From contig JAZONU010000165.1 in NCBI GenBank assembly GCA_045654605.1, positions 1 to 41,079 of the forward strand: a DNA stretch of 41,079 nucleotides, given 5' to 3'. The notes below the pieces were generated by a model that was given only the letters and a program-made list of their open reading frames with translations, did no database searches and was not told the origin of the DNA. Origin of the DNA: Candidatus Caccoplasma sp. (GTDB lineage Bacteria > Bacteroidota > Bacteroidia > Bacteroidales > G3-4614). Positions 1-41,079 of this stretch are shown here, in pieces (within the stretch, counting starts at the first letter, position 1; every line of letters begins with the position of its first letter). A program made the translations under genes and the position numbers.

Positions 1-627
1 AGTTTTAAGGAAAAAATAGCGGAGTACAAAAAGAAAAAGGAAGAAAAAGACTCTAAAGTATCAAAGAAATGGGAGAAAGGCACACTTAGAAATCAGAAGA
101 AGTTAAGGGCTAAAAGTCTTATATATAATTATCGTAATGTAGATAAAGGTAAAGGGTTGGATATGGATCTAACAGAAGATTGGGTTATCGAAAATATATT
201 CAGAAAAAAATGTATATACTGTGGCGAACATGATTGGAGGGAGTTAGGATGTGACCGTAAAGATAACACCAAAGGACATACTACGGATAACGTTGTTTGC
301 GCATGTAAGCGGTGCAACATGATAAGAGGGGATCAGTTTACGATGGACGAGATGAAGATGATAGGCAAGGTTATCAAGATGCTGAATGAGAAGAGAAAAA
401 AGGTGTTAAAATTAGACAGAAAGATGAGAAACGGAGAAAAGAATCCCGATCACCTGCGAAAAGCGAAACGCGTTGCCAAGTGCGATAAATACGGCCGTAT
501 AGTAGAAAAATATCATTCAGCGGCGGTGACAGAGGAATATGGTTATGTTGCAAAAATGGTAAGAAGGGCATGTAAAAGATTCAATGATGGTTATACTTAT
601 AGAGGTTATTTATGGAGGTACATTTGA
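1..627 (+). CDS. HNH endonuclease with NUMOD-like C-terminal DNA-binding tail; 5' end truncated by the window edge
   Basis: Frame 1 is open from base 1; the track ORF 157..627 starts at an internal TTG. CIYCG...DRKDNTKGHTTDNVVCACKRCNMIRG forms a CxxC...HN...CxxC HNH finger. GEKNP and the tail YTYRGYLWRY resemble modules of the HNH at 28655..29452. Confidence 0.8.
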   Translation, partial: SFKEKIAEYKKKKEEKDSKVSKKWEKGTLRNQKKLRAKSLIYNYRNVDKGKGLDMDLTEDWVIENIFRKKCIYCGEHDWRELGCDRKDNTKGHTTDNVVCACKRCNMIRGDQFTMDEMKMIGKVIKMLNEKRKKVLKLDRKMRNGEKNPDHLRKAKRVAKCDKYGRIVEKYHSAAVTEEYGYVAKMVRRACKRFNDGYTYRGYLWRYI

Positions 628-628
628 T

Positions 629-747
629 TAGTACATTGTAAATTAGATAGTTGACAAATTATTTTTTACAAAGGTAGAATATTTCTCGCATTTTTCAAAG
701 TGATGTGATATTTATTGATAAAGCCACAATAACGGCTAATATTTATA
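629..747. repeat. Left copy of a perfect direct repeat of at least 119 bp (attL-like)
   Basis: Base-for-base identical to 40961..41079. It starts 1 nt after the HNH stop codon. Identity breaks on the left side (628 vs 40960). Confidence 0.9.
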
Positions 748-9239: not shown

Positions 9240-9247
9240 TATGTTTA
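9240..9247 (+). promoter_or_regulatory. TATGTTTA box
   Basis: 17 nt before the ATG at 9265. The track start 9241 lies inside the box and is therefore unlikely. Confidence 0.5.
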
Positions 9248-9264
9248 ATAAAAGGGTAATAGAA

Positions 9265-9561
9265 ATGAAAAACGAAAGTTGGTCAGATTTATCAGTTAAG
9301 GAAAAAGCAGCAATAATCTCAGCGATTGCAGCCTTTATCGTTGGTTGGGCATTGACCATAGCCGGTTTCTGTGTTTACCCACTTGGAGAAATCGCAGACA
9401 GTATATTATGGGTACTTGGGCAAGCACTTATCTATGCTGCAAGTGTCTTTGGGATAACATCATACTTTACATGTGAATCAAGACGCTTGAAACGGGACAT
9501 AACAGAGTTCGTTGAGAGAAGTATTGAAAGACAAAGCGAGCATGAATCAGAGAGCGAATAA
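9265..9561 (+). CDS. Holin-like small membrane protein
   Basis: Two hydrophobic helices (AAIISAIAAFIVGWALTIAGFCVY; SILWVLGQALIYAASVFGITSYF), a charged C-terminal tail, and location in the lysis cluster. Confidence 0.5.
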   Translation: MKNESWSDLSVKEKAAIISAIAAFIVGWALTIAGFCVYPLGEIADSILWVLGQALIYAASVFGITSYFTCESRRLKRDITEFVERSIERQSEHESESE

Positions 9562-10060
9562 CATTATAATAGGCATATTGCTTACACTTGCTGTTATACT
9601 ACTTATAACGGTTGGGCATTATAAGGGAAAGGTTAAGGATAAACCTCTCTCAGATACCCTTGTAACCGTACATTATGATACTGTTTACAATACAATATTT
9701 AAAGTAGTCGAAAAGCCCGTTTTAAGGCTCGTAGAGACGATAAAACATGATACGGTATATCAGTCCAACGATACCGTAATAACGCTTCCTATCGAAAGAA
9801 AAATATATAACGATACCATCATATGCGAAGAAGCAGACAGTGTCATATTGGAGAGTACTATAGTAGGCATAAATCCATCCTTAGAATCAATCAAAGCAAA
9901 GTTGAAAAGGCGAGAAATTCATCAAAGCACAGAGAAAATAATCACAAAGTACAAGGAAAAGAAAGGTTTTTATATCGCGCCTAATGCGTCAATTGGATAC
10001 GGTATATTCAGTAAACAGCCGGATATCTACCTTGGTGTGGGAATAGGATACAGATTTTAA
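9542..10060 (+). CDS. N-terminally membrane-anchored lysis-cluster protein (spanin-like candidate)
   Basis: The ATG at 9542 gives MNQRANNIIIGILLTLAVILLITV, a signal anchor. The C-terminus YLGVGIGYRF has alternating hydrophobic residues and a terminal Phe. Confidence 0.4.
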   Translation: MNQRANNIIIGILLTLAVILLITVGHYKGKVKDKPLSDTLVTVHYDTVYNTIFKVVEKPVLRLVETIKHDTVYQSNDTVITLPIERKIYNDTIICEEADSVILESTIVGINPSLESIKAKLKRREIHQSTEKIITKYKEKKGFYIAPNASIGYGIFSKQPDIYLGVGIGYRF

Positions 10061-10061
10061 T

Positions 10062-10247
10062 ATGGAAGAACAACATTACAAGGTAGACTTTTATACAGAC
10101 GATTGCGTCATGTACATTGCTGATGAGGGGTGGTATTTTACCGATATAACTGAGTTTTACAATTACGGTAGGATAATATATGACAGTCCAAAGGTTAAGT
10201 TCAGCAAGTATTATAAGGTTAAAAGAATATTAAAAGAGGATGAGTGA
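10062..10247 (+). CDS. Hypothetical small protein
   Basis: 61-aa ORF packed between lysis genes. It overlaps the endolysin start by 8 nt. Confidence 0.45.
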   Translation: MEEQHYKVDFYTDDCVMYIADEGWYFTDITEFYNYGRIIYDSPKVKFSKYYKVKRILKEDE

Positions 10248-10671
10248 GTACATTACAAAAAACTTTACCTATGATGAATTAACCGGTTCAACAGTAGCAA
10301 AGAGACTTGGACTTGACAATACACCATCTGAGGTAGAGAAGAAGAGGCTTGTAATGCTTGCAAATGAGGTGTTACAGCCGATCAGGGACGCATGGAAGAG
10401 CGCAATCATTGTCAATAGTGCATATCGCAGTGAAGAGGTAAATAAAGCCGTAGGAGGCGTTAAAAACAGTCAACATAGAAAAGGTGAGGCTGCTGATATA
10501 ACGGTTGGTAGTAAGGAAAGGAATAAGAAGTTATTCAATTTTATACAGAAGTTGATTAATAACGGTACAATAGAAGTTGGACAACTTATTGACGAATATC
10601 ATTATAGTTGGATACATGTATCACTACCAAGGTCGAATGCAATGAACAATCAGATACTACACTTAGGTTAA
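10240..10671 (+). CDS. Endolysin, peptidase M15-type (zinc D-Ala-D-Ala carboxypeptidase-like)
   Basis: SAYRSEEVNKAVGGVKNSQHRKGEAADI (H-x6-D) plus the downstream WIHVS His match the M15 metal-binding pattern. Confidence 0.85.
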   Translation: MSEYITKNFTYDELTGSTVAKRLGLDNTPSEVEKKRLVMLANEVLQPIRDAWKSAIIVNSAYRSEEVNKAVGGVKNSQHRKGEAADITVGSKERNKKLFNFIQKLINNGTIEVGQLIDEYHYSWIHVSLPRSNAMNNQILHLG

Positions 10672-28654: not shown

Positions 28655-29452
28655 TTATGATGCGTACCGCCATTTATATTTTCCTGCACTTATCTTTTTT
28701 CCTCTGCAACATTTAGAAATGTCACCATCATCTATGCCGGTTTGTCTTTCTGCCTCCATTATTGATTCGTACCTTGCTACAAGTGTCGTACCGTCAAGTT
28801 CTAATTGTTCAACTGCTTTTAGTAACCAATATGGTTTTCTCCCCTTTCTTTTTTCACTCATCTTTTTCTTGGCTTCTTCTGAGTGATGTTTGCCAAGCAT
28901 ACTTTGTTCTCCTTTATTTGATTCACTAATCTTCATACGAGTTTCTTCTGAAGTGGTATGACCTTTTTTCGTTTCGCTCATTTTTTTTATAGACTCTTCT
29001 GAGTGATGCTTACCGTACATTGGATTCTTTTCACCTTTCAAGCCTCTATGGTGCAAACTGATATGCTCACTATGTGTTAGCCAACACAAATTTGATATTG
29101 AGTTATTCCTCGGATTATGGTCTTTATGATGAACAACCAACCGTTCACTGCTGTCTAATAATTCATTTGGTATTGGCACAAACATTTCGGCTATCAAACA
29201 ATGAAGATGTTTTGAAATTCGTTTTCCATTTTCTAAGATGAAGCCATATTTTTTATATCCGCCTTTATTAGTACTCCCATCAACTTTCTTCAAGTCACCA
29301 TTCTTTTTAATTCTCCATAGCGACCAATCATTTTCTCCCTCTCCCTTTCCGAGTAGGTGGTCATCTAAACCATCGATATTATAAAAAGTATAATTATTCA
29401 TATAACGCGTTATTTTATAAAATATAGTGTTTTGAACGGTTTTTTCAAACAT
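28655..29452 (-). CDS. HNH homing endonuclease (NUMOD4-like N-terminus, HNH, three NUMOD3-like units, NUMOD1-like HTH)
   Basis: VVHHKDHNPRNNSISNLCWLTHSEH is the HNH motif. GEKNPMYGKHHSEESIKKMSE, KGHTTSEETRMKISE and LGKHHSEEAKKKMSE are the repeats. The C-terminus is FxSxxEAERQTGIDDGDISKCCRGKKISAGKYKWRY. An alternative start is the ATG at 29401. Confidence 0.9.
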   Translation of the reverse strand: MFEKTVQNTIFYKITRYMNNYTFYNIDGLDDHLLGKGEGENDWSLWRIKKNGDLKKVDGSTNKGGYKKYGFILENGKRISKHLHCLIAEMFVPIPNELLDSSERLVVHHKDHNPRNNSISNLCWLTHSEHISLHHRGLKGEKNPMYGKHHSEESIKKMSETKKGHTTSEETRMKISESNKGEQSMLGKHHSEEAKKKMSEKRKGRKPYWLLKAVEQLELDGTTLVARYESIMEAERQTGIDDGDISKCCRGKKISAGKYKWRYAS

Positions 29453-34005: not shown

Positions 34006-34027
34006 CCAAATTTATTAACGGTTAAAA

Positions 34028-34059
34028 GGGTGCGTACCGTAATGGTATACACCCTTTTT
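34028..34059 (+). terminator. Rho-independent terminator ending the + strand late region
   Basis: GGGTGCGTACC-gtaat-GGTATACACCC (one mismatch) followed by TTTTT. Confidence 0.75.
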
Positions 34060-34261
34060 CATTTAATTATGGCTGAAAAAAAAGTAATTAACTCATATTA
34101 GTTTTTTAAGGGTGTGGGTGCATCTACAACTTTCATACACCCCCACCACTTTATAGATACCGCAGTACCATCCATCGCGGACACCCGCAGCCAAACTATC
34201 CATTTCAAAAAAACCAAATACGCAAAATTATGCGTCTGTATTATTGAAGATATTATATAAT

Positions 34262-34355
34262 CCTTTCTAAGCCCCGATCTCTTTATCGGGGTACAGTTAT
34301 ACCGTCTCAGTGACGATCTCGTCTCTGAGGGGCTTAAAATGCGTCTGAGGAAAGG
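34262..34355. other. Structured GC-richer non-coding element (nested hairpins); function and strand unknown
   Basis: CCTTTC (34262..67) pairs with GAAAGG (34350..55), and TAAGCCCC (34268..75) with GGGGCTTA (34329..36). Local hairpins are CCCCGAT/ATCGGGG (34272..91) and CTCAGTGACG-atct-CGTCTCTGAG (34306..29). Confidence 0.4.
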
Positions 34356-34392
34356 TTAAGGTTTAGGTCTGAACCTCGACAGTTCTCCTTAG

Positions 34393-34704
34393 TTAGTATG
34401 ATGACATGTATTCGTCCTCCATGCTGAAAATGATGATTGACGGGTCATCATGGCACTCACAGTAGTCCCTGACGATGCTGTACCAATAATAACCGTCATC
34501 CTCGTCCTTGTGACCATGAGCCCTTAAGTATATGTTAATGTGCCTCATGTACTCTCGCGATACCTTTAGATTGCTCGTCATATCAGCCATCAGTGCCTTA
34601 CTTACCTTTATTTCGGTTTGCCCGAAGCAGTCCGGTATCTCATTAAGTATTGCCTTTCCAAGGCGAATGGCGTTGTGCTTAATGTCCTTTCCTTTCTTTA
34701 ACAT
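34393..34704 (-). CDS. Hypothetical protein (103 aa), second gene of a two-gene operon
   Basis: ORF track. It starts 5 nt after the stop of 34710..34991. No motif recognised. Confidence 0.5.
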   Translation of the reverse strand: MLKKGKDIKHNAIRLGKAILNEIPDCFGQTEIKVSKALMADMTSNLKVSREYMRHINIYLRAHGHKDEDDGYYWYSIVRDYCECHDDPSIIIFSMEDEYMSSY

Positions 34705-34709
34705 AGCTC

Positions 34710-34991
34710 TTATATTTTGTTGGTTAAACTTTCAAGTCTAATATTGCCGTCAACAACCTCAAATGAATCAAACTCTCTATCTGCGGTATCGCGCATCCAA
34801 AAAGTATCCAACCACTCATCGTTTTCCGTTTCGACGAGCAATGTCAAATAATTAACATTCTCATACTCATAATCACTATCGAATATTGGAGAGCATTCTA
34901 TACCTTCTTCCGATACAAATATTGGAAGGCCGTCCTTTATTTCCGTTATCGTCCAAACCACACCGTCAACGTTTATTACTTCTTTTACCAT
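34710..34991 (-). CDS. Small, strongly acidic hypothetical protein (93 aa)
   Basis: About 23 Asp/Glu against 6 Lys/Arg, counted by hand. First gene downstream of the -7 box at 35102..35109. Confidence 0.5.
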   Translation of the reverse strand: MVKEVINVDGVVWTITEIKDGLPIFVSEEGIECSPIFDSDYEYENVNYLTLLVETENDEWLDTFWMRDTADREFDSFEVVDGNIRLESLTNKI

Positions 34992-35096
34992 AATCTTTAT
35001 TTATTTTAATATTAAACTTCTTTTTAAAATGCTTGGGCTATGCTCCCGCACCACCCAAGCCAAACATGGAAAAATATTTCTTAGAATTAGTTATTA

Positions 35097-35222
35097 CATG
35101 GCAAAGATACACATAATCTGCGAGAAAAGGAAGAAATTTATGTTAAATAATGTTAAAGGATTTGGAGCGTATCATTTTGCGCGTTAACTTTGCAGTTGCT
35201 CGGAGGTGTATACCTTATTATA
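35097..35222. repeat. Copy A of a diverged direct repeat (regulatory block); partner 37607..37732
   Basis: Column-by-column alignment at an exact offset of 2510 bp. Two well-conserved blocks: 35141..35167 (24 of 27 matches) and 35184..35222 (38 of 39). Confidence 0.85.
35102..35109 (-). promoter_or_regulatory. Bacteroides-type -7 box TATCTTTG (TAnnTTTG)
   Basis: Reverse complement of caaagata. It lies about 110 nt upstream of the start at 34991. Confidence 0.5.
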
Positions 35223-35223
35223 A

Positions 35224-35805
35224 TTACATATAACGATTTGGTTTTTTCAGTTTAATACTCCCAAGTATCGACTTGTCGGTGGTAACTGTTCTTTTCTTTT
35301 CTATGAACGAGTCCTTATCAGCATAGCATGTCGCATCACCCTTTGCACTGACATATACAACATAGTCATTCTTCACAACTACGCCAAAAACATTCTTGAC
35401 CTTTGCATAAAACTTGACTTCATAGATGGTTGGCCTATGCCATTTCTCATACGCGATGGAATCCAATCCACTATAATTGCATTCAACAAATTTTCTATCT
35501 GTCACTTTATACTCATGTTTGCCTGTATGTGTCATTGTGATATAACCGTAGTATGTTGTAATGTTAGAATCAGATGCCGGTATTATGTTAATAACCATTG
35601 AATTCATTCCCGCATCTTCGCCGTATTCATCACAAAGTACCAAAGACGACGGGATTGATAGATTGCGTCTTAGTTCATTCAAAGCGATTTTCTTAATGCG
35701 GGTTTCATCTGACTCAGTCTTGATATTGAAATCGAAGATACTTACTGTCTGCGCTACTACTGCGAATAAACAAGCAAAAATTACGAATTCTAAAAGTTTT
35801 TTCAT
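35224..35805 (-). CDS. Exported protein (signal peptide, possibly a lipoprotein), moron candidate
   Basis: The N-terminal MKKLLEFVIFACLFAVVAQTVS is hydrophobic and contains a Cys. Last gene of the four-gene minus-strand cassette. Confidence 0.6.
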   Translation of the reverse strand: MKKLLEFVIFACLFAVVAQTVSIFDFNIKTESDETRIKKIALNELRRNLSIPSSLVLCDEYGEDAGMNSMVINIIPASDSNITTYYGYITMTHTGKHEYKVTDRKFVECNYSGLDSIAYEKWHRPTIYEVKFYAKVKNVFGVVVKNDYVVYVSAKGDATCYADKDSFIEKKRTVTTDKSILGSIKLKKPNRYM

Positions 35806-35823
35806 TGTGAATGTCTTATTTAA

Positions 35824-35892
35824 TTAATTATTTAATACTTTACTTATAATGTCTTTTGATACTGCCTCTCTTTTTTGTTCCTCAGCGAGTTT
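35824..35892 (-). pseudogene. Fossil 3' end (22 codons plus stop) of a paralogue of 36712..37401
   Basis: It translates to KLAEEQKREAVSKDIISKVLNN-stop, compared with QLAEEQRKEAISKDVISKVINH-stop at the end of 36712..37401. There are about 10 nt mismatches in roughly 70 nt. No upstream ORF is attached. Confidence 0.7.
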
Positions 35893-35913
35893 CTGTATAC
35901 CTTATTATATATA

Positions 35914-36699
35914 TTAATTCTTGTTCGGCAAAATGTCATTCATTATATGACCCAATGGGTCTTTTTCCCACTTTGCCTTTTCCATACGCTCATTTTTTCT
36001 TTTTTCTCCGAGTTCAGTAAGACTAACGCTATATAGTATTGAGGGATTCTTAACTTCTTTCCACTCCATTGTATAATTCGTCACAACAGAAATTTTCGCT
36101 ATGTCTTTCGATATTGTAACAATATTCTCTCGTATGTAATTAAATCTTTCCTTTAAATGAGATTCGAGTGTTTTATTAAAAGATATAGTTTCTTCCTTAA
36201 ACAGAACCCCATAAAATTCGTATTCATTAGGTACTACAATTTCGTAATCTTCTTTTAAAGTTGTGTTTGGATTAAATGACAGCGCCTTTTGTGTAAGTAT
36301 TATCTCTACTTTTACTTCGTAGTACTCTGAAAGTTCTTCTATTTCTTCCTCTGTCACTATTTGTTGCTTTTCTTTATACTCGACATTGCAGTAGGCATCC
36401 AATATATCGCTTGATTTTATCTCATTAGTCCTCAACAAATTCAGATATCTAAGACGATCGTATCCTGCTGATCTACCAAATAAATTATTCAAACCTACAA
36501 CAACTTCTTTTTTATTAATAAGTTTTAATGCTTTGTCGAATGTCTCTCTCGTTATTTCTTCTTTGATGTCCTTTTTTTCCAAATTTTTCTCTTTTTTTGT
36601 CTCACTTTTATTATTGGCTCTCCAATATACACCGTCAACTTGAGAATATGTACCAATGCTAATAAAAATACATACTACTAATAATAATACCCTTTTCAT
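35914..36699 (-). CDS. Exported protein (signal peptide), distant paralogue of 36712..37401
   Basis: N-terminal MKRVLLLVVCIFISIGTYSQ. Shared features are RYLN, EYYEVKV/EHYSVSI, and SLTELGEKRKNE/ELSEYGKEQLAE near the C-terminus. Confidence 0.6.
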   Translation of the reverse strand: MKRVLLLVVCIFISIGTYSQVDGVYWRANNKSETKKEKNLEKKDIKEEITRETFDKALKLINKKEVVVGLNNLFGRSAGYDRLRYLNLLRTNEIKSSDILDAYCNVEYKEKQQIVTEEEIEELSEYYEVKVEIILTQKALSFNPNTTLKEDYEIVVPNEYEFYGVLFKEETISFNKTLESHLKERFNYIRENIVTISKDIAKISVVTNYTMEWKEVKNPSILYSVSLTELGEKRKNERMEKAKWEKDPLGHIMNDILPNKN

Positions 36700-36711
36700 A
36701 CCGTTGTTTAA

Positions 36712-37401
36712 TTAATGATTTATTACTTTACTTATAACGTCTTTTGATATTGCTTCTTTTCTTTGCTCCTCAGCGAGTTGCTCCTTACCATACTCAGATA
36801 ATTCAACCGTTATTAAATCTGAGAAATCAACTACATTACCATCCTTTGAAATATATACAGTCTTTACTATTTTAATCTCGTCAATTCCGGCTTTTTTAAT
36901 TACATTGCCGCAATTAAGCAATCCATCCCTATAAATTTCTGTTGCCATAAATGAATAACCATTTCCTAATATACACTCAGGTTTTAACGATAGTGTGATA
37001 GATACTGAATAATGTTCTTCTGTGATGCGTTTTTCTGTTTGATATACAAATACATCTTTATTCTTGTGTTCAGTGGTGTATTCCATCTTCTTTATGTCTG
37101 AAATATCATCTATCTTTGCACCCAATACATTCTTTTTATTGAAATTCAAATATCTGCATTGTCTCCAAATGTCCAAATCCTCAATGATGTTTTGCTTTGT
37201 CTCTTCTCTGTTCAAATAATCAATCGTATAATCCAATGCAATCTTGACTAACTCTTTTTCGTCAATCATGACGGATGTGGTACTATTCAACTTATCATGG
37301 GCTTTCTTACTTTCAATAGACCACCTTAGATATAGACAAATTGAATTAATTATGACAAATGCTATAAAACCGATCAGTAAATACTTTAATACCTTTTTCA
37401 T
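36712..37401 (-). CDS. N-terminally membrane-anchored protein
   Basis: MKKVLKYLLIGFIAFVIINSICLYL is a hydrophobic anchor. See 35914..36699 for the paralogue. Confidence 0.6.
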   Translation of the reverse strand: MKKVLKYLLIGFIAFVIINSICLYLRWSIESKKAHDKLNSTTSVMIDEKELVKIALDYTIDYLNREETKQNIIEDLDIWRQCRYLNFNKKNVLGAKIDDISDIKKMEYTTEHKNKDVFVYQTEKRITEEHYSVSITLSLKPECILGNGYSFMATEIYRDGLLNCGNVIKKAGIDEIKIVKTVYISKDGNVVDFSDLITVELSEYGKEQLAEEQRKEAISKDVISKVINH

Positions 37402-37413
37402 TGTCTTTAAACC

Positions 37414-37593
37414 TTAAATAGTTGAAGTAATTAATAAATAAACCAAGCAGCCAATCAGAAAACATACTGTAAAGATGATGAGCATTATTTTTCCAACTCC
37501 CAAACCAAACTTGAACAACCATACAAAAATGTCAACCATGACATTGTTTTTAAATAAACCTTCCTTCATTTTTCCAATCTTTTTAACTGTCAT
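37414..37593 (-). CDS. Small two-helix membrane protein
   Basis: The track ORF starts at a TTG (37614) that overlaps the -7 box. The first ATG is at 37593, with another at 37569. Hydrophobic segments are VMVDIFVWLFKFGLGVG and IMLIIFTVCFLIGCLVYLLI. Confidence 0.4.
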   Translation of the reverse strand: MTVKKIGKMKEGLFKNNVMVDIFVWLFKFGLGVGKIMLIIFTVCFLIGCLVYLLITSTI

Positions 37594-37606
37594 TCTCTCT
37601 TGATGA

Positions 37607-37732
37607 CATTGCAAATATAGTAATAAAATCCCACATTAGGAAATATTTTATGTTAAATAACGTTAAACGATTTGGAGGTATCGGAAAAACGATTTAACTT
37701 TGCAGTTGCTCGGTGGTGTATACCTTATTATA
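37607..37732. repeat. Copy B of the diverged direct repeat (partner 35097..35222)
   Basis: See copy A. The last 21 bp, TGTATACCTTATTATATATAT (37717..37737), recur exactly at 35894..35914. Confidence 0.85.
37612..37619 (-). promoter_or_regulatory. Bacteroides-type -7 box TATATTTG
   Basis: Reverse complement of caaatata. Same repeat column as the box at 35102..35109. It sits upstream of the four-gene cassette. Confidence 0.5.
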
Positions 37733-37737
37733 TATAT

Positions 37738-37770
37738 GGGAGGGGGGACGCGGCGAGCGAGGGGGGAGGG
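37738..37770 (+). other. G-rich mirror repeat GGGAGGGGGG-N13-GGGGGGAGGG (potential G-quadruplex or triplex)
   Basis: Read directly from the sequence. It contains four G-tracts of 3 or more and is the only such GC-rich tract noticed in this AT-rich window. Confidence 0.6.
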
Positions 37771-37899
37771 CAAACTATAAGTTGAACTATGTTGTTATAC
37801 CTATTCGTTTTCTTTTTAAGCGTAAATCTTATTATTTGAACAATGTTTAAAAGAAAACTAACCCTTGGATCGGCTAACTCTTGGAGGTCTTACCCATTA

Positions 37900-38595
37900 T
37901 CAAAACGATGTCTCAACCCAACTTGAACTGCTGACCTTTTCCTTATCAACTACTGATAGGTATTCTTCCTGCGTAAGCCAATTCTTTTCTTCAGTTATTA
38001 ATCCTAAATGTGCTGCTTTGTACAGTTCTGTATTTGATAGTTTATTTGAAGGTATATTTCCTATTTTATTTATAGTTTCATTTCCATTTTTCTTTTCCTT
38101 TATATTTTCCTTTTCATTTTTATTTATATTTCCATTTACATTTACCATTACATTTTCATTTATCTTTATATTTACCTTTTCATTTACATTTACCTTTTCA
38201 TTTACCATTACAGCCGGCTCATGATTTATAAGGTTTTTTAAAAGCAAATAACTTGGTTTTTTTGTTATCTCATATGAATCGTTCAGAATGTTATCAAAGT
38301 TGAGATAATACTTACCGGCAATGGATGATTGCCCTTTTGTCCTTTTCTTACCGTTTTCGTAGTCCAACAGTCCAAAGTCCTTTAGTTCTAATTTGGCACC
38401 GTTCACAGCACCCTTTGTAAGTTCAGTCCTTTCGCATATCATATCCCTACTAACAATGATGATACCCGTATCCTTAGCCTCAGACCTTGCGTAATAATAA
38501 AGCAGATAGCCAAGCAGTATCTTAGCGTCTTCGCTCATGTCCTCACTCTTTATAATGCGAGGCGGTAAATCTTTAATGTAAATTGTTTTTGCCAT
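37900..38595 (-). CDS. Winged-helix (HTH_36-like) DNA-binding protein; repressor or replication-initiator candidate
   Basis: MSEDAKILLGYLLYYYARSEAKDTGIIIVSRDMICERTELTKGAVNGAKLELKDFGLL fits the wHTH pattern found in replication and regulatory proteins. An N/K/E/V low-complexity linker and a roughly 55-aa C-terminal domain follow. Confidence 0.55.
   Translation of the reverse strand: MAKTIYIKDLPPRIIKSEDMSEDAKILLGYLLYYYARSEAKDTGIIIVSRDMICERTELTKGAVNGAKLELKDFGLLDYENGKKRTKGQSSIAGKYYLNFDNILNDSYEITKKPSYLLLKNLINHEPAVMVNEKVNVNEKVNIKINENVMVNVNGNINKNEKENIKEKKNGNETINKIGNIPSNKLSNTELYKAAHLGLITEEKNWLTQEEYLSVVDKEKVSSSSWVETSF
38078..38215. repeat. AT-rich imperfect tandem repeat (ATTTAC/CATTTAC units, 6 to 18-bp phasing) inside the wHTH gene
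   Basis: Examples: ttcatttacatttacctt (38179..38196) followed by ttcatttaccattaca, and tccatttacatttaccattaca at 38131. It encodes NEKVNVNEKVNIKINENVMVNVNGNINKNEKEN. Confidence 0.7.
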
Positions 38596-39444: not shown

Positions 39445-40743
39445 TTACATTATCGATACAGCATTAACCAAGTCATCTTCAGCAGATAGTTGCTCGACAT
39501 ATGCGGAAAGACTGTCAACCGATCTTCCAAGCAACGTTGCAAGAGCAATGGGACTTCCACCTTTTGCCATAAATGCCATCGCATAAGAATGCCTTGCAGC
39601 GTAAAAGGTGAGACCACTGTCAATATACGGTATATTGAGGTGTTTCTTCTGTACCAACATGTTTATCTCACCAAAGCATAGTTTCAGCCCCTTGTTAACC
39701 TCTGCCAACTCATAACTTATACGGTTCATTAACTTTTTATCATCGTTTGGCTCAATGCCTTCAAGTATTGGAATGAGCCAATGGCTTCTATTAATATGCA
39801 TAAGCGGACGTATCATTGCATCAGAATAGTCATCCTGCAGTATCCTTATCTTAACGGGTACTGATGTCTTACTTCTCTTAGTATCAATGCAGTAGTAATT
39901 CTTACCGTTGATGTGCTTAACCGTCATCTGTGAGCGCTCAAGTTTGAACATGTCAACCGGTGCAAGACCTTGCATAAGAATGCATGTCATGAAAAGCCAA
40001 AGAGGGTAGTGTTTATCCTTCTTATCGAACATGATGCTACCATTATCCTTGAGAATCATTTCCATATGCTTCTTCATAAAGGCAACGGTTGTGTAGTGTA
40101 TATAACCGTTCTTTATTGGAGTCTTCAGTTTCTTAGCATAGTTCCATGACAGTAATGGATTAACGGTTATAACCTTCTTTTCTACTGCATATGAAAGCAC
40201 TGCTTGTATGCATGATAGATTGGCTCTTATTGTACCGTCACTCAGTCCATCCTTCTTAAGTCTGTCAGCAAACTTCCTTAAGTCAGTTTCTCTCAGTTCA
40301 GCACATTCAACGGTATGTCCAACGAATGCCTCTAACTTTGATGCTGTGGAACGATGTCGCCTTGCAGTGTTATATGAAAGATGGTTGTCATTTATCATCG
40401 CTTCCATCACCTCTTTATATCGCTTCAGGGGCGCGATCTCTACGGTAGATGGTGCAAGTAACATTGCTGCTGTATACGGCTCTCCTGAGGCTTCAAAACG
40501 CGTTCTTCTTTCAATGGCTTCAGCCTTTAACTTCTGCAATATACCGTTAATGGCTGATGCGTTGGGAAATGTCTTCTTAAGGCATTGGTTCTTCTTATCC
40601 CAATCCTTTACATTACATGAGAAATGGGTTGATACTTCCTTTGTACCGTTCCATGCAGCCCTCAGCATAATGGGGTGAGTGCCATCACTCAGAGTCTTAG
40701 TAGTTCTGAGTGTTAAGTTAATTGATGCGGTAAATACTTTCAT
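39445..40743 (-). CDS. int: Tyrosine recombinase / phage integrase (Bacteroidota type with N-terminal arm-binding domain)
   Basis: 432 aa. The N-terminal MKVF...SDGTHPIMLRAAWNG...DW is typical of Bacteroides-type integrases. Catalytic-domain motifs include YAARHSYAMAF and LLGRSVDSLSAYV. It is adjacent to the right repeat. Confidence 0.9.
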   Translation of the reverse strand: MKVFTASINLTLRTTKTLSDGTHPIMLRAAWNGTKEVSTHFSCNVKDWDKKNQCLKKTFPNASAINGILQKLKAEAIERRTRFEASGEPYTAAMLLAPSTVEIAPLKRYKEVMEAMINDNHLSYNTARRHRSTASKLEAFVGHTVECAELRETDLRKFADRLKKDGLSDGTIRANLSCIQAVLSYAVEKKVITVNPLLSWNYAKKLKTPIKNGYIHYTTVAFMKKHMEMILKDNGSIMFDKKDKHYPLWLFMTCILMQGLAPVDMFKLERSQMTVKHINGKNYYCIDTKRSKTSVPVKIRILQDDYSDAMIRPLMHINRSHWLIPILEGIEPNDDKKLMNRISYELAEVNKGLKLCFGEINMLVQKKHLNIPYIDSGLTFYAARHSYAMAFMAKGGSPIALATLLGRSVDSLSAYVEQLSAEDDLVNAVSIM

Positions 40744-40848
40744 GATTCAGTCCTTTTTATAGTACATTTTATTCTTATTACACCGCTAAGTTAGGACATT
40801 TTATATTATCATCAAAGAAAATCGTAAAATATTTATAATCAAGGTGTT

Positions 40849-40947
40849 TTATTTATTACGGTTATAAATAGTGTTGTTGTAGGAGAAATACATTGATACA
40901 CCTACTAACAAGATGATAATCAATACAATAGCGATAATCATAATCAT
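40849..40947 (-). CDS. Candidate 32-aa hydrophobic micro-protein upstream of int
   Basis: Hand translation: MIMIIAIVLIIILLVGVSMYFSYNNTIYNRNK-stop. It is preceded by the same 18-nt leader that precedes the int ATG. Confidence 0.3.
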   Translation of the reverse strand: MIMIIAIVLIIILLVGVSMYFSYNNTIYNRNK

Positions 40948-40960
40948 TTATTCCTTTTTA

Positions 40961-41079
40961 TAGTACATTGTAAATTAGATAGTTGACAAATTATTTTTTA
41001 CAAAGGTAGAATATTTCTCGCATTTTTCAAAGTGATGTGATATTTATTGATAAAGCCACAATAACGGCTAATATTTATA
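40961..41079. repeat. Right copy of the perfect direct repeat of at least 119 bp (attR-like), truncated by the window end
   Basis: Identical to 629..747. Identity starts at 40961. Confidence 0.9.
41001..41031 (-). promoter_or_regulatory. Canonical Bacteroides-type promoter TTTG-N19-TACCTTTG facing the micro-ORF and int
   Basis: The reverse complement of caaaggta (41001..41008) gives TACCTTTG. The reverse complement of caaa (41028..41031) gives TTTG, 19 nt upstream. The same element occurs in the left copy at 669..699. Confidence 0.5.

What the first reader, a model, noticed from the sequence alone, without database searches (positions are those of the whole stretch)
35097..37737. Four-gene exported/membrane-protein cassette bounded by diverged direct repeats at an exact 2510-bp offset
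The segments 35097..35222 and 37607..37732 align without gaps at an offset of 2510 bp. Two blocks are strongly conserved: TGTTAAATAA(T/C)GTTAAA(G/C)GATTTGGAG and TTAACTTTGCAGTTGCTCGG(A/T)GGTGTATACCTTATTATA. Each copy carries a minus-strand TAnnTTTG box in the same column (35102 and 37612).

Between them lie four minus-strand genes. They encode a 2-TM micro-protein (37414..37593), a membrane-anchored protein (36712..37401), its signal-peptide paralogue (35914..36699) and another signal-peptide protein (35224..35805).

The arrangement looks like a self-contained moron with its own promoter, inserted by duplication of the promoter region of the neighbouring operon. The cargo is plausibly expressed from the prophage at the cell envelope. 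It could be a candidate for superinfection exclusion or receptor masking, but no known family was recognised.
Basis: partly seen in the sequence, partly recalled or inferred. Interest (0 to 1): 0.65.

Follow-up and report, generated by a model that had tools for sequence, protein, structure and literature searches.

The report
Swappable ORFan envelope-gene cassette in phage
A 2.4-kb block of four unknown membrane or secreted-protein genes sits at a gene-swapping hotspot of a phage genome, between two copies of a promoter-bearing repeat; close relatives carry one repeat and no block, so it is a fairly ordinary but well-documented accessory ('moron'-like) cassette.

Summary
Segments 35097-35222 and 37607-37732 align without gaps (94/126). 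Two blocks are nearly identical (26/28 and 38/39). The 19-nt spacer between them is random (5/19).

A third, partial copy (35894-35914) follows the stop codon of the 261-aa gene (P3). Behind it lies an in-frame relic of a P2-like 3' end (P2 is the 229-aa gene).

- One sample has replication gene, C-rich tract, one repeat copy, then the downstream operon, with no cassette.
- Another has an HNH endonuclease gene at the same spot.
- Another has an unrelated 153-aa gene there.
- Another has P2-P3 followed directly by the repeat, without the 193-aa gene (P4).

All seven junctions share the motif ATATAATAAGGTATACA. The cassette is therefore dispensable cargo at a recombination hotspot, and it is itself composite.

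The four proteins have no homologues in any library searched. They carry signal or anchor sequences. P3 evolves fast (dN/dS 0.85, against 0.06-0.17 for flanking genes). The lysis module lies elsewhere.

An envelope role such as superinfection exclusion is plausible but untested. The closest analogue is the PeSL regulatory cassette of T4-like phages. Interest is moderate.

The parts
37607..37732 (-). Element copy B, upstream of the cassette. On the minus strand it reads: junction motif, block 2, 19-nt variable spacer, block 1 with two GTTAAA sites 10 bp apart, variable stretch, then the -7 box TATATTTG (37619-37612).
35097..35222 (-). Element copy A. It starts 1 nt after the P4 stop codon and lies upstream of the g93-g103 operon. 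Its -7 box TATCTTTG is at 35109-35102.
   Evidence: It is 92% identical to the single copy in relative L019 and 82% to that in L020.
37717..37737 (-). Junction motif (minus strand ATATATATAATAAGGTATACA) at the upstream edge of copy B, directly after the C-rich tract.
35894..35914 (-). Third, partial element copy. It is the same 21-nt junction motif, abutting the P3 stop codon and with no promoter part.
35816..35893 (-). Relic of the 3' end of a P2-like gene, with its stop codon and the spacer after it. It is cut off upstream by the junction motif and is closed by stop codons, so it is not translated.
   Evidence: family D2: 84% over 89 nt against 36704-36792. One 23-nt stretch is identical to the P2 allele of relative L016.
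37414..37593 (-). P1, 59 aa. It has a basic N-terminus, one strong hydrophobic segment (residues 36-54) and a weaker one before it. It is a small inner-membrane protein.
   Evidence: The codon-usage score is weak but best in this frame. No family hit.
36712..37401 (-). P2, 229 aa, with an N-terminal signal-anchor (residues 7-25) and a soluble domain outside the cytoplasm. It is an ORFan.
   Evidence: The only significant match among 1.84 billion representatives is itself. No family hit.
35914..36699 (-). P3, 261 aa, with a cleavable-type signal peptide (likely cut ...TYS/QVDG). It is a distant paralogue of P2 and evolves fast.
   Evidence: dN/dS is 0.85 against its 88%-identical homologue, with three in-frame indels and a variable patch at residues 165-179.
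35224..35805 (-). P4, 193 aa, with a signal peptide (likely cut ...VVA/QTVS). It is an ORFan unrelated to P2 and P3, and it is absent at this position in relative L016.
35161..35192 (+). Plus-strand promoter-like site in copy A: TTTG (35161-35164), a 20-nt spacer, then TAACTTTG (35185-35192). The same site occurs in copy B at 37671-37702. Its boxes lie inside the two conserved blocks, and its spacer is the unconserved stretch.
37738..37771 (-). C-rich tract on the transcribed strand, between the replication gene and copy B. It is the only 35-nt stretch in the window with 75% G+C or more, and it marks the upstream border of the hotspot.
   Evidence: It is present in relatives L017/L019, and as a variant in L022.
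34393..34991 (-). Downstream operon driven by copy A: g93 (34710-34991, net charge -17) and g103 (34393-34704). The leader carries a conserved hairpin at 35031-35060. A bidirectional terminator-like site lies at 34220-34235.
37900..38595 (-). Replication-initiator-like gene (DnaD/O-like) that forms the upstream flank of the hotspot. It has 12-nt tandem repeats inside it at 38019-38215.

Best explanation
**What it is**

The region is a dispensable accessory cassette. It sits at a hypervariable hotspot between the replication-initiator gene and a small early operon of a circular, integrase-carrying phage genome. The promoter type, the integrase domains and the BspA-like repeats point to a Bacteroidota host.

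**The element**

The hotspot is defined by a 126-bp intergenic element. Its upstream edge is the motif ATATAATAAGGTATACA, and this always abuts the stop codon of whatever gene precedes it. Next come a 39-nt conserved block, a variable spacer of fixed length, and a 28-nt block with two GTTAAA sites one helical turn apart. A TAnnTTTG -7 box follows about 30 nt further on. Homology between the two copies ends about 5 nt past that box, at the expected transcription start. The repeated unit is therefore a whole promoter region.

**Shown**
- Close relatives carry at this junction nothing, an HNH endonuclease gene, an unrelated 153-aa gene, or P2-P3 without P4.
- The window's cassette is composite. 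It consists of P1-P2-P3, then a junction motif, then a relic of a P2-like gene, then P4.

**Inferred**
- The cargo moves by homologous or microhomology recombination through the conserved parts of the element. The two diverged copies are both the substrate and the product of that exchange.
- Copy B drives P1-P2-P3-P4 as one transcript, which reads on into copy A and g93-g103.
- The four products go to the inner membrane and the periplasmic or outer compartment. There they most probably change what the infected or lysogenic cell presents to other phages, by superinfection exclusion or receptor masking. This would fit the fast protein evolution of P3.

I put the structural part at about 0.85 and the functional part at about 0.3.
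For: - **Repeat anatomy:**
- **Third copy and relic:**
- **Empty site:** L017 ends in replication gene, hairpin and the start of the C-rich tract. L019, from the same sample, starts in the C-rich tract and runs through the motif and an A-type element into g93 and g103.
- **HNH allele:** L018 and L022 overlap by 17 nt. Between the C-rich tract and the motif they carry a 127-aa HNH endonuclease gene (phrog_119, E = 1.5e-11).
- **153-aa allele:** L020.
- **P4-less allele:** L016.
- **Shared motif:** seven junctions with five different upstream neighbours.
- **Close kinship of the flanks:** 92-99% DNA identity for the L017, L018, L019 and L021 flanks.
- **Composition:** the cassette has 32.0% G+C, against 39.2% for positions 1-34000.
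- **Operon layout:** the gaps P1-P2 and P2-P3 are 12 nt each.
- **Termination:** there is no terminator-like site between P4 and copy A. A 16-bp hairpin and the C-rich tract lie between the replication gene and copy B.
- **Targeting signals:**
- **Real, fast-evolving gene:** P3 shows in-frame indels and dN/dS 0.85. The replication gene gives 0.12-0.17, the integrase 0.06-0.09, the protease 0.08 and g103 0.12.
- **Lysis genes elsewhere:**
- **Promoter consensus:** TAnnTTTG at -7 and TTTG near -33, from PMC7366714.
Against: - There are no expression data of any kind.
- The minus-strand promoter has no TTTG at -33. It has TTCC at that column in four of five copies.
- In relatives L019 and L022 the -7 box reads CACCTTTG.
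- The direction of change cannot be decided. Recombination between copies B and A would delete the cassette and leave exactly the 'empty' structure seen.
- The join between L017 and L019 across the C-rich tract is inferred, not seen on one contig.
- The replication gene next door is also low in G+C (33%), so composition is weak evidence for foreign origin.
- The function rests only on topology, context and evolutionary rate. Both structure models were useless (pLDDT 38 and 41).
- A dN/dS near 1 could equally mean relaxed constraint.
Confidence: 0.6

Rival explanations
1. The cassette is ancestral at this site. The relatives' empty site is a deletion made by recombination between the two direct copies. 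The repeats would then be two co-regulated promoter/operator regions kept by selection, not scars of an insertion.
For: - A crossover in block 2 between copies B and A gives exactly the L019 structure: C-rich tract, motif, block 2, A-type interior, g93.
- The blocks are conserved while the spacer has randomised. That indicates selection on both copies.
Against: - Unrelated cargo occupies the same junction in other relatives: an HNH gene and a 153-aa gene.
- The cassette is itself composite, with a relic at an inner junction.
- It is lower in G+C than the structural part of the genome.
- The cassette proteins are seen in only one other sample out of billions of proteins.
Confidence: 0.3
2. The two conserved blocks are mainly a plus-strand promoter, TTTG-N20-TAACTTTG, firing away from the downstream operon. 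It would make an RNA antisense to the 3' end of whatever gene lies upstream. That could insulate the downstream unit from read-through or control the upstream gene, as lambda OOP RNA does for cII.
For: - The boxes lie exactly in blocks 1 and 2. The 20-nt spacer is the only part that has randomised, and its length is fixed.
- Only 4 of the 19 plus-strand TAnnTTTG boxes in the window have a TTTG at this distance, and two of those four are these.
- The diverged L022 copy still has TAATTTTG at the same column.
- A plus-strand terminator-like hairpin lies at 35949-35961. In a P4-less allele it would end an RNA of about 80 nt.
Against: - Block 2 is conserved for 30 nt beyond the box, and block 1 for about 24 nt upstream of the TTTG. 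That is more than a promoter needs.
- No plus-strand ORF or structured RNA follows (folding z-scores are about 0; no Rfam match).
- L022 has lost the -33 TTTG.
Confidence: 0.25
3. The junction motif is the target of a free-standing homing endonuclease. Repeated double-strand breaks there, repaired from co-infecting relatives, make the site a hotspot and carry flanking cargo along.
For: - One relative has an HNH endonuclease gene inserted exactly between the C-rich tract and the motif.
- In that genome the motif carries two substitutions (TAATGAGGTATGCA), and block 2 is replaced by a diverged version, as expected for a self-immune allele with a co-conversion tract.
- The lineage has many free-standing HNH genes at varying positions.
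- The mechanism is known from T4-type phages (PMC2988022).
Against: - No cleavage data exist.
- The window has no endonuclease gene at this site.
- Plain homologous recombination through 39 nt of identity would give the same pattern.
Confidence: 0.2
4. The four genes are ordinary lysis genes (holin, spanins) or virion genes.
For: A small two-segment membrane protein followed by an N-anchored protein and secreted proteins looks superficially like a holin-spanin set.
Against: - A separate lysis module exists: a 2-TM 106-aa protein, an N-anchored 182-aa DUF6808 protein and a Peptidase_M15_3 endolysin at 9241-10671.
- The cassette is absent from close relatives.
- It has no PHROG or Pfam match.
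- It lies in the early, minus-strand block next to the replication gene.
Confidence: 0.03
5. The repeat is chance or an assembly artefact.
For: The C-rich tract next to copy B is a place where assemblies break.
Against: - Identity of 94/126 without gaps cannot arise by chance.
- The longest exact shared runs are 21 nt or less.
- The P3-motif-element junction and the C-rich-motif-element-g93 junction both occur independently in other samples.
Confidence: 0.01

Closest known systems
PeSL (promoter-early stem-loop) mobile regulatory cassettes in the hyperplastic regions of T4-like phages (Arbiol et al. 2010, PMC2839356; Comeau et al. 2014, PMC4122927)
   Same: - It is a short repeated intergenic unit that starts at the stop codon of the upstream gene in an AT-rich stretch and carries a host-type promoter.
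- It sits immediately upstream of ORFan genes.
- Copies mark the borders of insertions, deletions and replacements between closely related phages.
- Recombination between two copies would release a circle, here of 2510 bp.
- A G/C-rich tract lies next to it.
   Different: - The promoter motif is of the Bacteroidota type, not sigma-70.
- No stem-loop terminator lies inside the unit.
- There are only two full copies and one partial copy per genome, not about 50.
- The unit is longer (126 nt) and has a 39-nt block of unknown role.
- The phage is a 40-kb integrase-carrying genome, not a T4-like myovirus.
Morons of lambdoid and other temperate phages (reviewed in 'The moron comes of age', PMC3594210)
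   Same: - The extra genes are present in one genome and absent at the same place in close relatives.
- They have their own promoter-like sequence.
- Their G+C content is lower than that of the core genome.
- Products that act at the cell envelope are common among morons.
   Different: - There is no terminator of its own.
- It is a four-gene composite rather than a single gene.
- It lies in the early or replication block.
- Expression from a repressed prophage is not shown.
Intronless homing by free-standing HNH or GIY-YIG endonucleases in T4-type phages (Edgell et al. 2010, PMC2988022)
   Same: - An HNH gene occupies the same intergenic junction in one relative and is absent in others.
- The sequence flanking it is replaced by a diverged version.
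   Different: The window's cargo is not an endonuclease gene, and no cleavage site has been shown.
Phage superinfection-exclusion and receptor-masking envelope proteins (T4 Imm/Sp, P22 SieA, T5 Llp, phi80/HK022 Cor, Ltp of TP-J34 as in PMC3952083)
   Same: They are small membrane-anchored or secreted accessory proteins encoded outside the structural genes, they vary between relatives, and they evolve fast.
   Different: There is no sequence similarity to any of them or to any PHROG family. There is no lipobox. Function is untested.

Membership tests
Moron | Present in one phage and absent at the same position in closely related phages | tested here: met
   L017 and L019 show replication gene, C-rich tract, a single element, then g93, with 92-99% identical flanks.
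Moron | Own promoter | tested here: inconclusive
   A TAnnTTTG box lies 12-19 nt upstream of the P1 start codon, and homology between the copies ends at the expected start site. There is no -33 TTTG and there are no transcript data.
Moron | Own terminator (an autonomous transcription unit) | tested here: not met
   No terminator-like site lies on the minus strand between P4 and copy A.
Moron | Base composition different from the surrounding genome | tested here: inconclusive
   The cassette has 32.0% G+C, against 39.2% for positions 1-34000. The adjacent replication gene has 33.2%.
Moron | Expressed from the repressed prophage | not testable with these tools
   No transcript data are available. 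The sequences at hand show the circular form of the genome.
PeSL mobile regulatory cassette | Repeated intergenic motif with a host-type early promoter, beginning at the upstream stop codon | tested here: met
   The promoter is identified by consensus only.
PeSL mobile regulatory cassette | Stable stem-loop terminator or attenuator inside the motif | tested here: not met
   Folding of both strands of both copies gives z-scores from -1.1 to +0.8. There is no terminator-like site on the minus strand.
PeSL mobile regulatory cassette | Copies lie at the borders of indels and replacements between close relatives | tested here: met
   Seven junctions have five different upstream neighbours.
PeSL mobile regulatory cassette | Many copies clustered in hyperplastic regions | tested here: not met
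   The window holds only two full copies and one partial copy.
PeSL mobile regulatory cassette | Mini-circles formed by recombination between copies | not testable with these tools
   This needs reads or PCR across a P4-end/element/P1 junction.
Integron gene cassette | attC site (imperfect inverted repeats) at the cassette end, with an IntI integrase and attI/Pc next to the array | tested here: not met
   The repeats are direct and have no hairpin. The only recombinase is a phage-type integrase with Arm-DNA-bind_5 and SAM-like domains. It lies 1.7 kb away, beyond two other genes.
Diversity-generating retroelement (template/variable repeat pair) | Repeat pair in which one copy lies in the 3' end of a target gene, mismatches fall at adenines, and a reverse transcriptase gene is nearby | tested here: not met
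   Both copies are intergenic. The 32 mismatches are of nine kinds. No reverse transcriptase turned up among the ORFs scanned.
Known superinfection-exclusion protein families | Sequence membership in a described family | tested here: not met
   Pfam, PHROGs, PADLOC, NCBIfam and PDB give nothing significant for any of the four proteins. The large protein collections give nothing for P2, P3 or P4; P1 was not effectively searched there.
Known superinfection-exclusion protein families | Blocks infection by the same or related phages when expressed | not testable with these tools
   This needs plating assays.
Lysis cassette (holin, endolysin, spanin) | Contains or adjoins the endolysin and is conserved among relatives | tested here: not met
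   The endolysin (Peptidase_M15_3) and its membrane partners are at 9241-10671. The cassette is absent in relatives.
Intronless homing site | Endonuclease gene next to the site in some genomes and absent in others, with the site altered in carriers | tested here: inconclusive
   L022 carries an HNH gene at the junction, with two substitutions in the motif and a diverged block 2. Cleavage is not testable here.

The most novel reading that the evidence does not exclude
The 126-bp element is a portable promoter-plus-linker module. It would work like a PeSL but in a small integrase-carrying phage that uses Bacteroidota-type promoters. Through it, and perhaps helped by a homing endonuclease that cuts its invariant 17-nt edge, unrelated genes are swapped in and out as excisable circles. 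The P1-P4 cargo would be a new family of fast-evolving envelope proteins that exclude competing phages.
Probability: 0.2. Interest if true: 0.6.

Novelty: new member of a known kind. Interest (0 to 1): 0.4.

Why it matters
Natural alleles document how a phage outside the well-studied model groups gains and loses accessory genes. One short promoter-bearing element is the common joint for at least five different neighbours, and the intermediate states are preserved (empty, HNH, partial cassette, full cassette with a relic).

If the element proves to be a general linker, it extends the idea of mobile regulatory cassettes beyond T4-like phages. It would also offer a natural insertion site for engineering phages of this group.

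The four ORFan envelope proteins are candidates for new phage-exclusion or surface-modifying functions. At present this is only a lead.

Tried and rejected
**Family and homology searches**
- Pfam, PHROGs, PADLOC, NCBIfam and PDB sequence searches on the cassette proteins gave nothing significant.
- P3 found only itself and one 88% homologue among 5.8 billion proteins. P4 found only itself.
- For P2, all 1.84 billion representatives were read. The result was itself plus one marginal repeat-protein hit at E about 1e-3, judged to be chance.
- I spent the last protein search on a concatenated query of six proteins. It returned nothing, probably because low-complexity words filled the candidate list. 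That search was wasted.

**Structure**
- AlphaFold models of P4 alone and of P3 with two aligned sequences had pLDDT 38 and 41. No fold search was justified.

**RNA**
- Rfam found nothing relevant in the region. Folding of the repeat on both strands showed no structure signal.

**Searches for the element and for relatives**
- Exact-pattern scans for both conserved blocks in viral, metagenome and genome collections gave no match.
- Protein-based locus searches in IMG/VR with the replication protein, P2 and the integrase found nothing.
- The protease/scaffold gene gave 15 loci of about 50% identity that share nothing else with this region.
- GenBank phages have no DNA match and no close relative.
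- Exact-protein look-ups of window proteins failed.
- The route that worked was to list the 90% clusters of the window proteins and then fetch the contigs of the cluster members.

**Readings rejected**
- Integron cassette, DGR repeat pair, lysis cassette, transposon with target-site duplication (no transposase, and 16-21 nt is too long), small peptide MLNNVK... on the plus strand (only its first nine codons are conserved), and assembly artefact.

Full report
**1. The observation**

The two segments 35097-35222 and 37607-37732 align without a gap at an offset of 2510 bp, with 94 of 126 identical positions. Identity is very uneven:
- left 40 nt: 25/40
- block 1 (35137-35164): 26/28
- the next 19 nt: 5/19, which is random
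- block 2 (35184-35222): 38/39

Homology stops sharply on both sides. The minus-strand TAnnTTTG boxes are at 35109-35102 (TATCTTTG) and 37619-37612 (TATATTTG). The four minus-strand ORFs are as described. The annotated frame scores best of the six for each by the codon usage of the phage's long genes. The margin is clear for P2, P3 and P4 and weak for P1.

**2.

The 15-mer GTATACCTTATTATA occurs a third time, at 35895-35909 (three exact matches against 0.2 expected). On the minus strand this is ATATATATAATAAGGTATACA. It starts immediately after the P3 stop codon and is identical over 21 nt to the upstream edge of copy B.

Behind it lies a relic, not the rest of the element. Segment 35816-35904 is 84% identical to 36704-36792, which is the last 26 or so codons of P2, its stop codon and the spacer after it (family D2). 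The relic keeps the reading frame and mostly conservative changes, but TAA codons close it upstream.

P1, P2 and P3 are separated by 12 nt each. P3 and P4 are separated by 108 nt, made up of this motif and the relic. The 'four-gene cassette' is therefore composite: P1-P2-P3, followed by a later-joined piece consisting of the tail of a P2-like gene plus P4.

**3. Relatives**

Scans of IMG/VR, JGI metagenomes and GTDB genomes found neither the conserved blocks nor close homologues of the neighbouring proteins. The only IMG/VR relatives share just the protease/scaffold gene, at about 50% identity.

Listing the 90% clusters of the window's proteins revealed near-identical proteins in Logan assemblies, and their contigs could be fetched. 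Flank DNA identity to the window is 92-99% for L017, L018, L019 and L021. L020 is 95% identical over the portal-protease genes but only 75-82% over g103, g93 and the element. The alleles at the site are:

- **(a) Empty, sample SRR16020817.** L017 ends with the replication gene, an AT-rich hairpin and TTTACCCTCCCCCC. L019 begins with TCCCCCCCTCCC, then ATATATATAATAAGGTATACA, an A-type element, g93 and g103. The two contigs break inside the C-rich tract. About 12 nt are missing compared with the window. This is the empty site: one element copy and no cassette.
- **(b) HNH, sample SRR16020859.** L018 and L022 overlap by 17 nt. After a variant C-rich tract comes a 127-aa HNH endonuclease gene (phrog_119, E = 1.5e-11). 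Then come TATATATAATGAGGTATGCA, a diverged block 2 and the rest of the element, followed directly by g103. The g93 gene is absent.
- **(c) 153-aa gene, sample SRR30832648.** On the single contig L020, an unrelated 153-aa ORF without a signal sequence ends in TAG. It is followed by TATATATAATAAGGTATATACC, the element, a 96-aa gene and g103.
- **(d) P4-less, sample SRR16020825.** In L016 the tail of P2 and a P3 homologue (88% identical) are followed by TATATATAATAAGGTATACA-CTTCCGAGC. The element follows P3 directly, without the relic or P4.

An alignment of all seven junctions shows the motif ATATAATAAGGTATACA nearly invariant, with five different sequences upstream of it.

**4. What it is**

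The locus between the replication-initiator gene and the g93-g103 operon is a hotspot of gene gain, loss and replacement. The upstream edge of the element is the common joint.

The window's copy A is the resident copy. It is 92% identical to the single copy of L019, including the 19-nt spacer. Copy B shares only the two blocks, the fixed spacing and the -7 box with it. So copy B is an old or foreign homologue, not a recent duplication.

The simplest history has two steps:
- The cassette, carrying its own B-type element, entered by recombination through the motif and block 2 (39 nt, 38 identical).
- P4 was joined earlier or later by an illegitimate crossover between the motif and the GGTA... 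stretch in the tail of a P2-like gene.

The reverse direction gives the same empty structure and cannot be excluded. In that case relatives lost the cassette by recombination between copies B and A. Either way the cassette is dispensable and recombinationally mobile.

**5. How the element may work**

On the minus strand the order is as follows:
- the stop codon of the upstream gene
- the AT-rich motif
- block 2
- a 19-nt variable spacer
- block 1, with GTTAAA-N4-GTTAAA (this pair occurs only in these two places in the window)
- about 28 variable nt
- TAnnTTTG
- the end of homology about 5 nt later, where a Bacteroidota-type promoter would start transcription (consensus from PMC7366714)

For copy B the leader to the P1 ATG would be about 12 nt. 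For copy A it is about 104 nt and contains a hairpin (35031-35060) conserved in all four g93/g103-linked copies.

Upstream of copy B lie a 16-bp AT-rich hairpin (37804-37861) and a 34-nt tract that is C-rich on the transcribed strand (37738-37771). That tract is unique in the window and is conserved as a compositional feature in relatives. Together they may stop transcription coming from the replication gene. This last point is inference.

No terminator-like site follows P4, so the cassette transcript probably runs on into g93-g103. That operon ends at a bidirectional terminator-like site at 34220-34235.

A caveat applies. The minus-strand promoter has no TTTG at -33, and in L019 and L022 its -7 box reads CACCTTTG.

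The better consensus match is on the other strand: TTTG, 20 nt, TAACTTTG (35161-35192 and 37671-37702). Its boxes fall exactly in the two conserved blocks, and its spacer is the randomised stretch. This could be a second, outward-facing promoter making RNA antisense to the upstream gene. It is listed as a rival or additional reading. No RNA structure or Rfam family is detectable.

**6. The cargo**

Topology, and by eye:
- P1 (59 aa) has a basic N-terminus and one strong plus one weak hydrophobic segment.
- P2 (229 aa) has an uncleaved N-terminal anchor.
- P3 (261 aa) has a signal peptide with a plausible signal-peptidase I site (TYS/Q).
- P4 (193 aa) has one too (VVA/Q).
- None has a canonical lipobox.

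P2 and P3 are distant paralogues. P4 is unrelated to both.

None of the four matches any family in Pfam, PHROGs, PADLOC, NCBIfam or PDB sequences. P2, P3 and P4 also find no homologue in the two very large protein collections, apart from the one P3 homologue. P1 was not effectively searched there, because the concatenated query that included it failed. Structure prediction failed for lack of homologues.

P3 is a real gene. Against its homologue it has three in-frame indels and an intact frame. It evolves fast, with 28 non-synonymous and 8 synonymous codon differences, a variable patch at residues 165-179, and dN/dS of 0.85. The comparison genes give 0.12-0.17 (replication gene), 0.06-0.09 (integrase), 0.08 (protease) and 0.12 (g103).

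The phage's lysis module is elsewhere: a 2-TM 106-aa protein, an N-anchored DUF6808 protein and a Peptidase_M15_3 endolysin at 9241-10671.

The most likely role is therefore an accessory function at the cell envelope. Superinfection exclusion or receptor masking fits the topology, the dispensability and the rate of change, but none of it is tested. I put this at about 0.3.

**7. Context**

The window is a phage genome. It has a large terminase, a portal, a protease/scaffold, tail proteins with BspA-type repeats, an integrase with Arm-DNA-bind_5, and several free-standing HNH genes.

Its last 119 nt equal 629-747. In L017 and L018 the integrase-upstream region continues straight into the terminase-side genes. 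The genome is therefore circular or circularly assembled, and no host flank is present. 'Prophage' is an inference from the integrase alone. No cultured relative exists in the GenBank phage set.

**8. Comparison with known systems**

The closest analogue in mechanism is the PeSL, the promoter-early stem-loop cassette of T4-like phages. It is a short repeated promoter unit that starts at the upstream stop codon, precedes ORFans and marks indel borders between close relatives. Recombination between PeSL copies makes mini-circles (PMC2839356; PMC4122927). The element here meets the promoter, position and indel-border features. It fails the stem-loop and copy-number features, so it works like a PeSL but is not one.

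As a moron (PMC3594210) it meets presence/absence and a promoter by consensus. It lacks its own terminator, and its expression is unknown.

The HNH allele at the same joint, with an altered motif, recalls intronless homing (PMC2988022). This is a lead only.

**9. Verdict**

The function is open. It is a new member of a known kind, and interest is moderate.

Noticed in passing
window 38019-38215 (inside the gene 37900-38595, minus strand): Eleven tandem 12-nt units lie inside the DnaD/O-like replication-initiator gene. They encode an N/V/K/E-rich stretch. This looks like an origin with iterons inside the initiator gene, as in lambda O.
   Followed up: partly
window 37738-37771; L017 end, L019 start, L022 18-60: This G/C-rich tract (C-rich on the transcribed strand) is the only 35-nt stretch in the window with 75% G+C or more. 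Two Logan contigs break inside it. A relative has a different but equally C-rich sequence at the same place. It could be a Rho-type termination signal or a DNA structure next to the origin.
   Followed up: partly
window 629-747 and 40961-41079; window 1-627; L017 9102-9734: The last 119 nt of the window repeat 629-747 exactly. Window position 1 lies 6 nt inside a 210-aa gene related to endonuclease VII/HNH. L017 has this gene between the integrase-upstream region and the repeat, and L018 lacks it. The record looks like a circular genome linearised across a polymorphic endonuclease gene.
   Followed up: partly
window 34710-34991 (minus strand): g93, the first gene behind copy A, is 93 aa with net charge -17, like DNA-mimic anti-restriction or anti-defence proteins. 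It is absent in L022. In L020 an unrelated 96-aa gene (19% identity) takes its place.
   Followed up: partly
window 34006-34392 against L019 1046-1918: A second indel site. L019 has an extra 290-aa gene (phrog_5931, E = 8e-36) between g103 and the protease gene, where the window has a 388-nt gap with a bidirectional terminator-like hairpin (34220-34235).
   Followed up: partly
window 9241-10671: The likely lysis module: a 106-aa protein with two hydrophobic segments, a 182-aa N-anchored DUF6808 protein and a 143-aa Peptidase_M15_3 endolysin.
   Followed up: partly
window 28655-29452 (minus strand): A free-standing HNH homing-endonuclease gene is the only minus-strand gene within the block of plus-strand tail and BspA-repeat genes. 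Relatives carry other HNH genes at other places (L018 6787-7401; L020 4862-5452 and 8563-9300).
   Followed up: no
window 35031-35060 (minus strand leader of g93): A hairpin (GCTTGGG...CCCAAGC) in the 104-nt leader between copy A and g93 keeps an invariant stem and a variable loop in all four relatives that have this leader. It is followed by ATTTTAAAAAG. It may be an attenuator or a processing site.
   Followed up: no
L020 3900-4860: About 1 kb has no convincing ORF and ordinary base composition. It lies between the 153-aa gene and an HNH gene, where the window has its replication gene. There is no Rfam match.
   Followed up: partly
window 40742-40771 and 40943-40972: A 30-nt direct repeat (87% identical, TCCTTTTTATAGTACATT core) lies just upstream of the integrase start and again 200 nt further on. 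These may be integrase arm or core sites.
   Followed up: no
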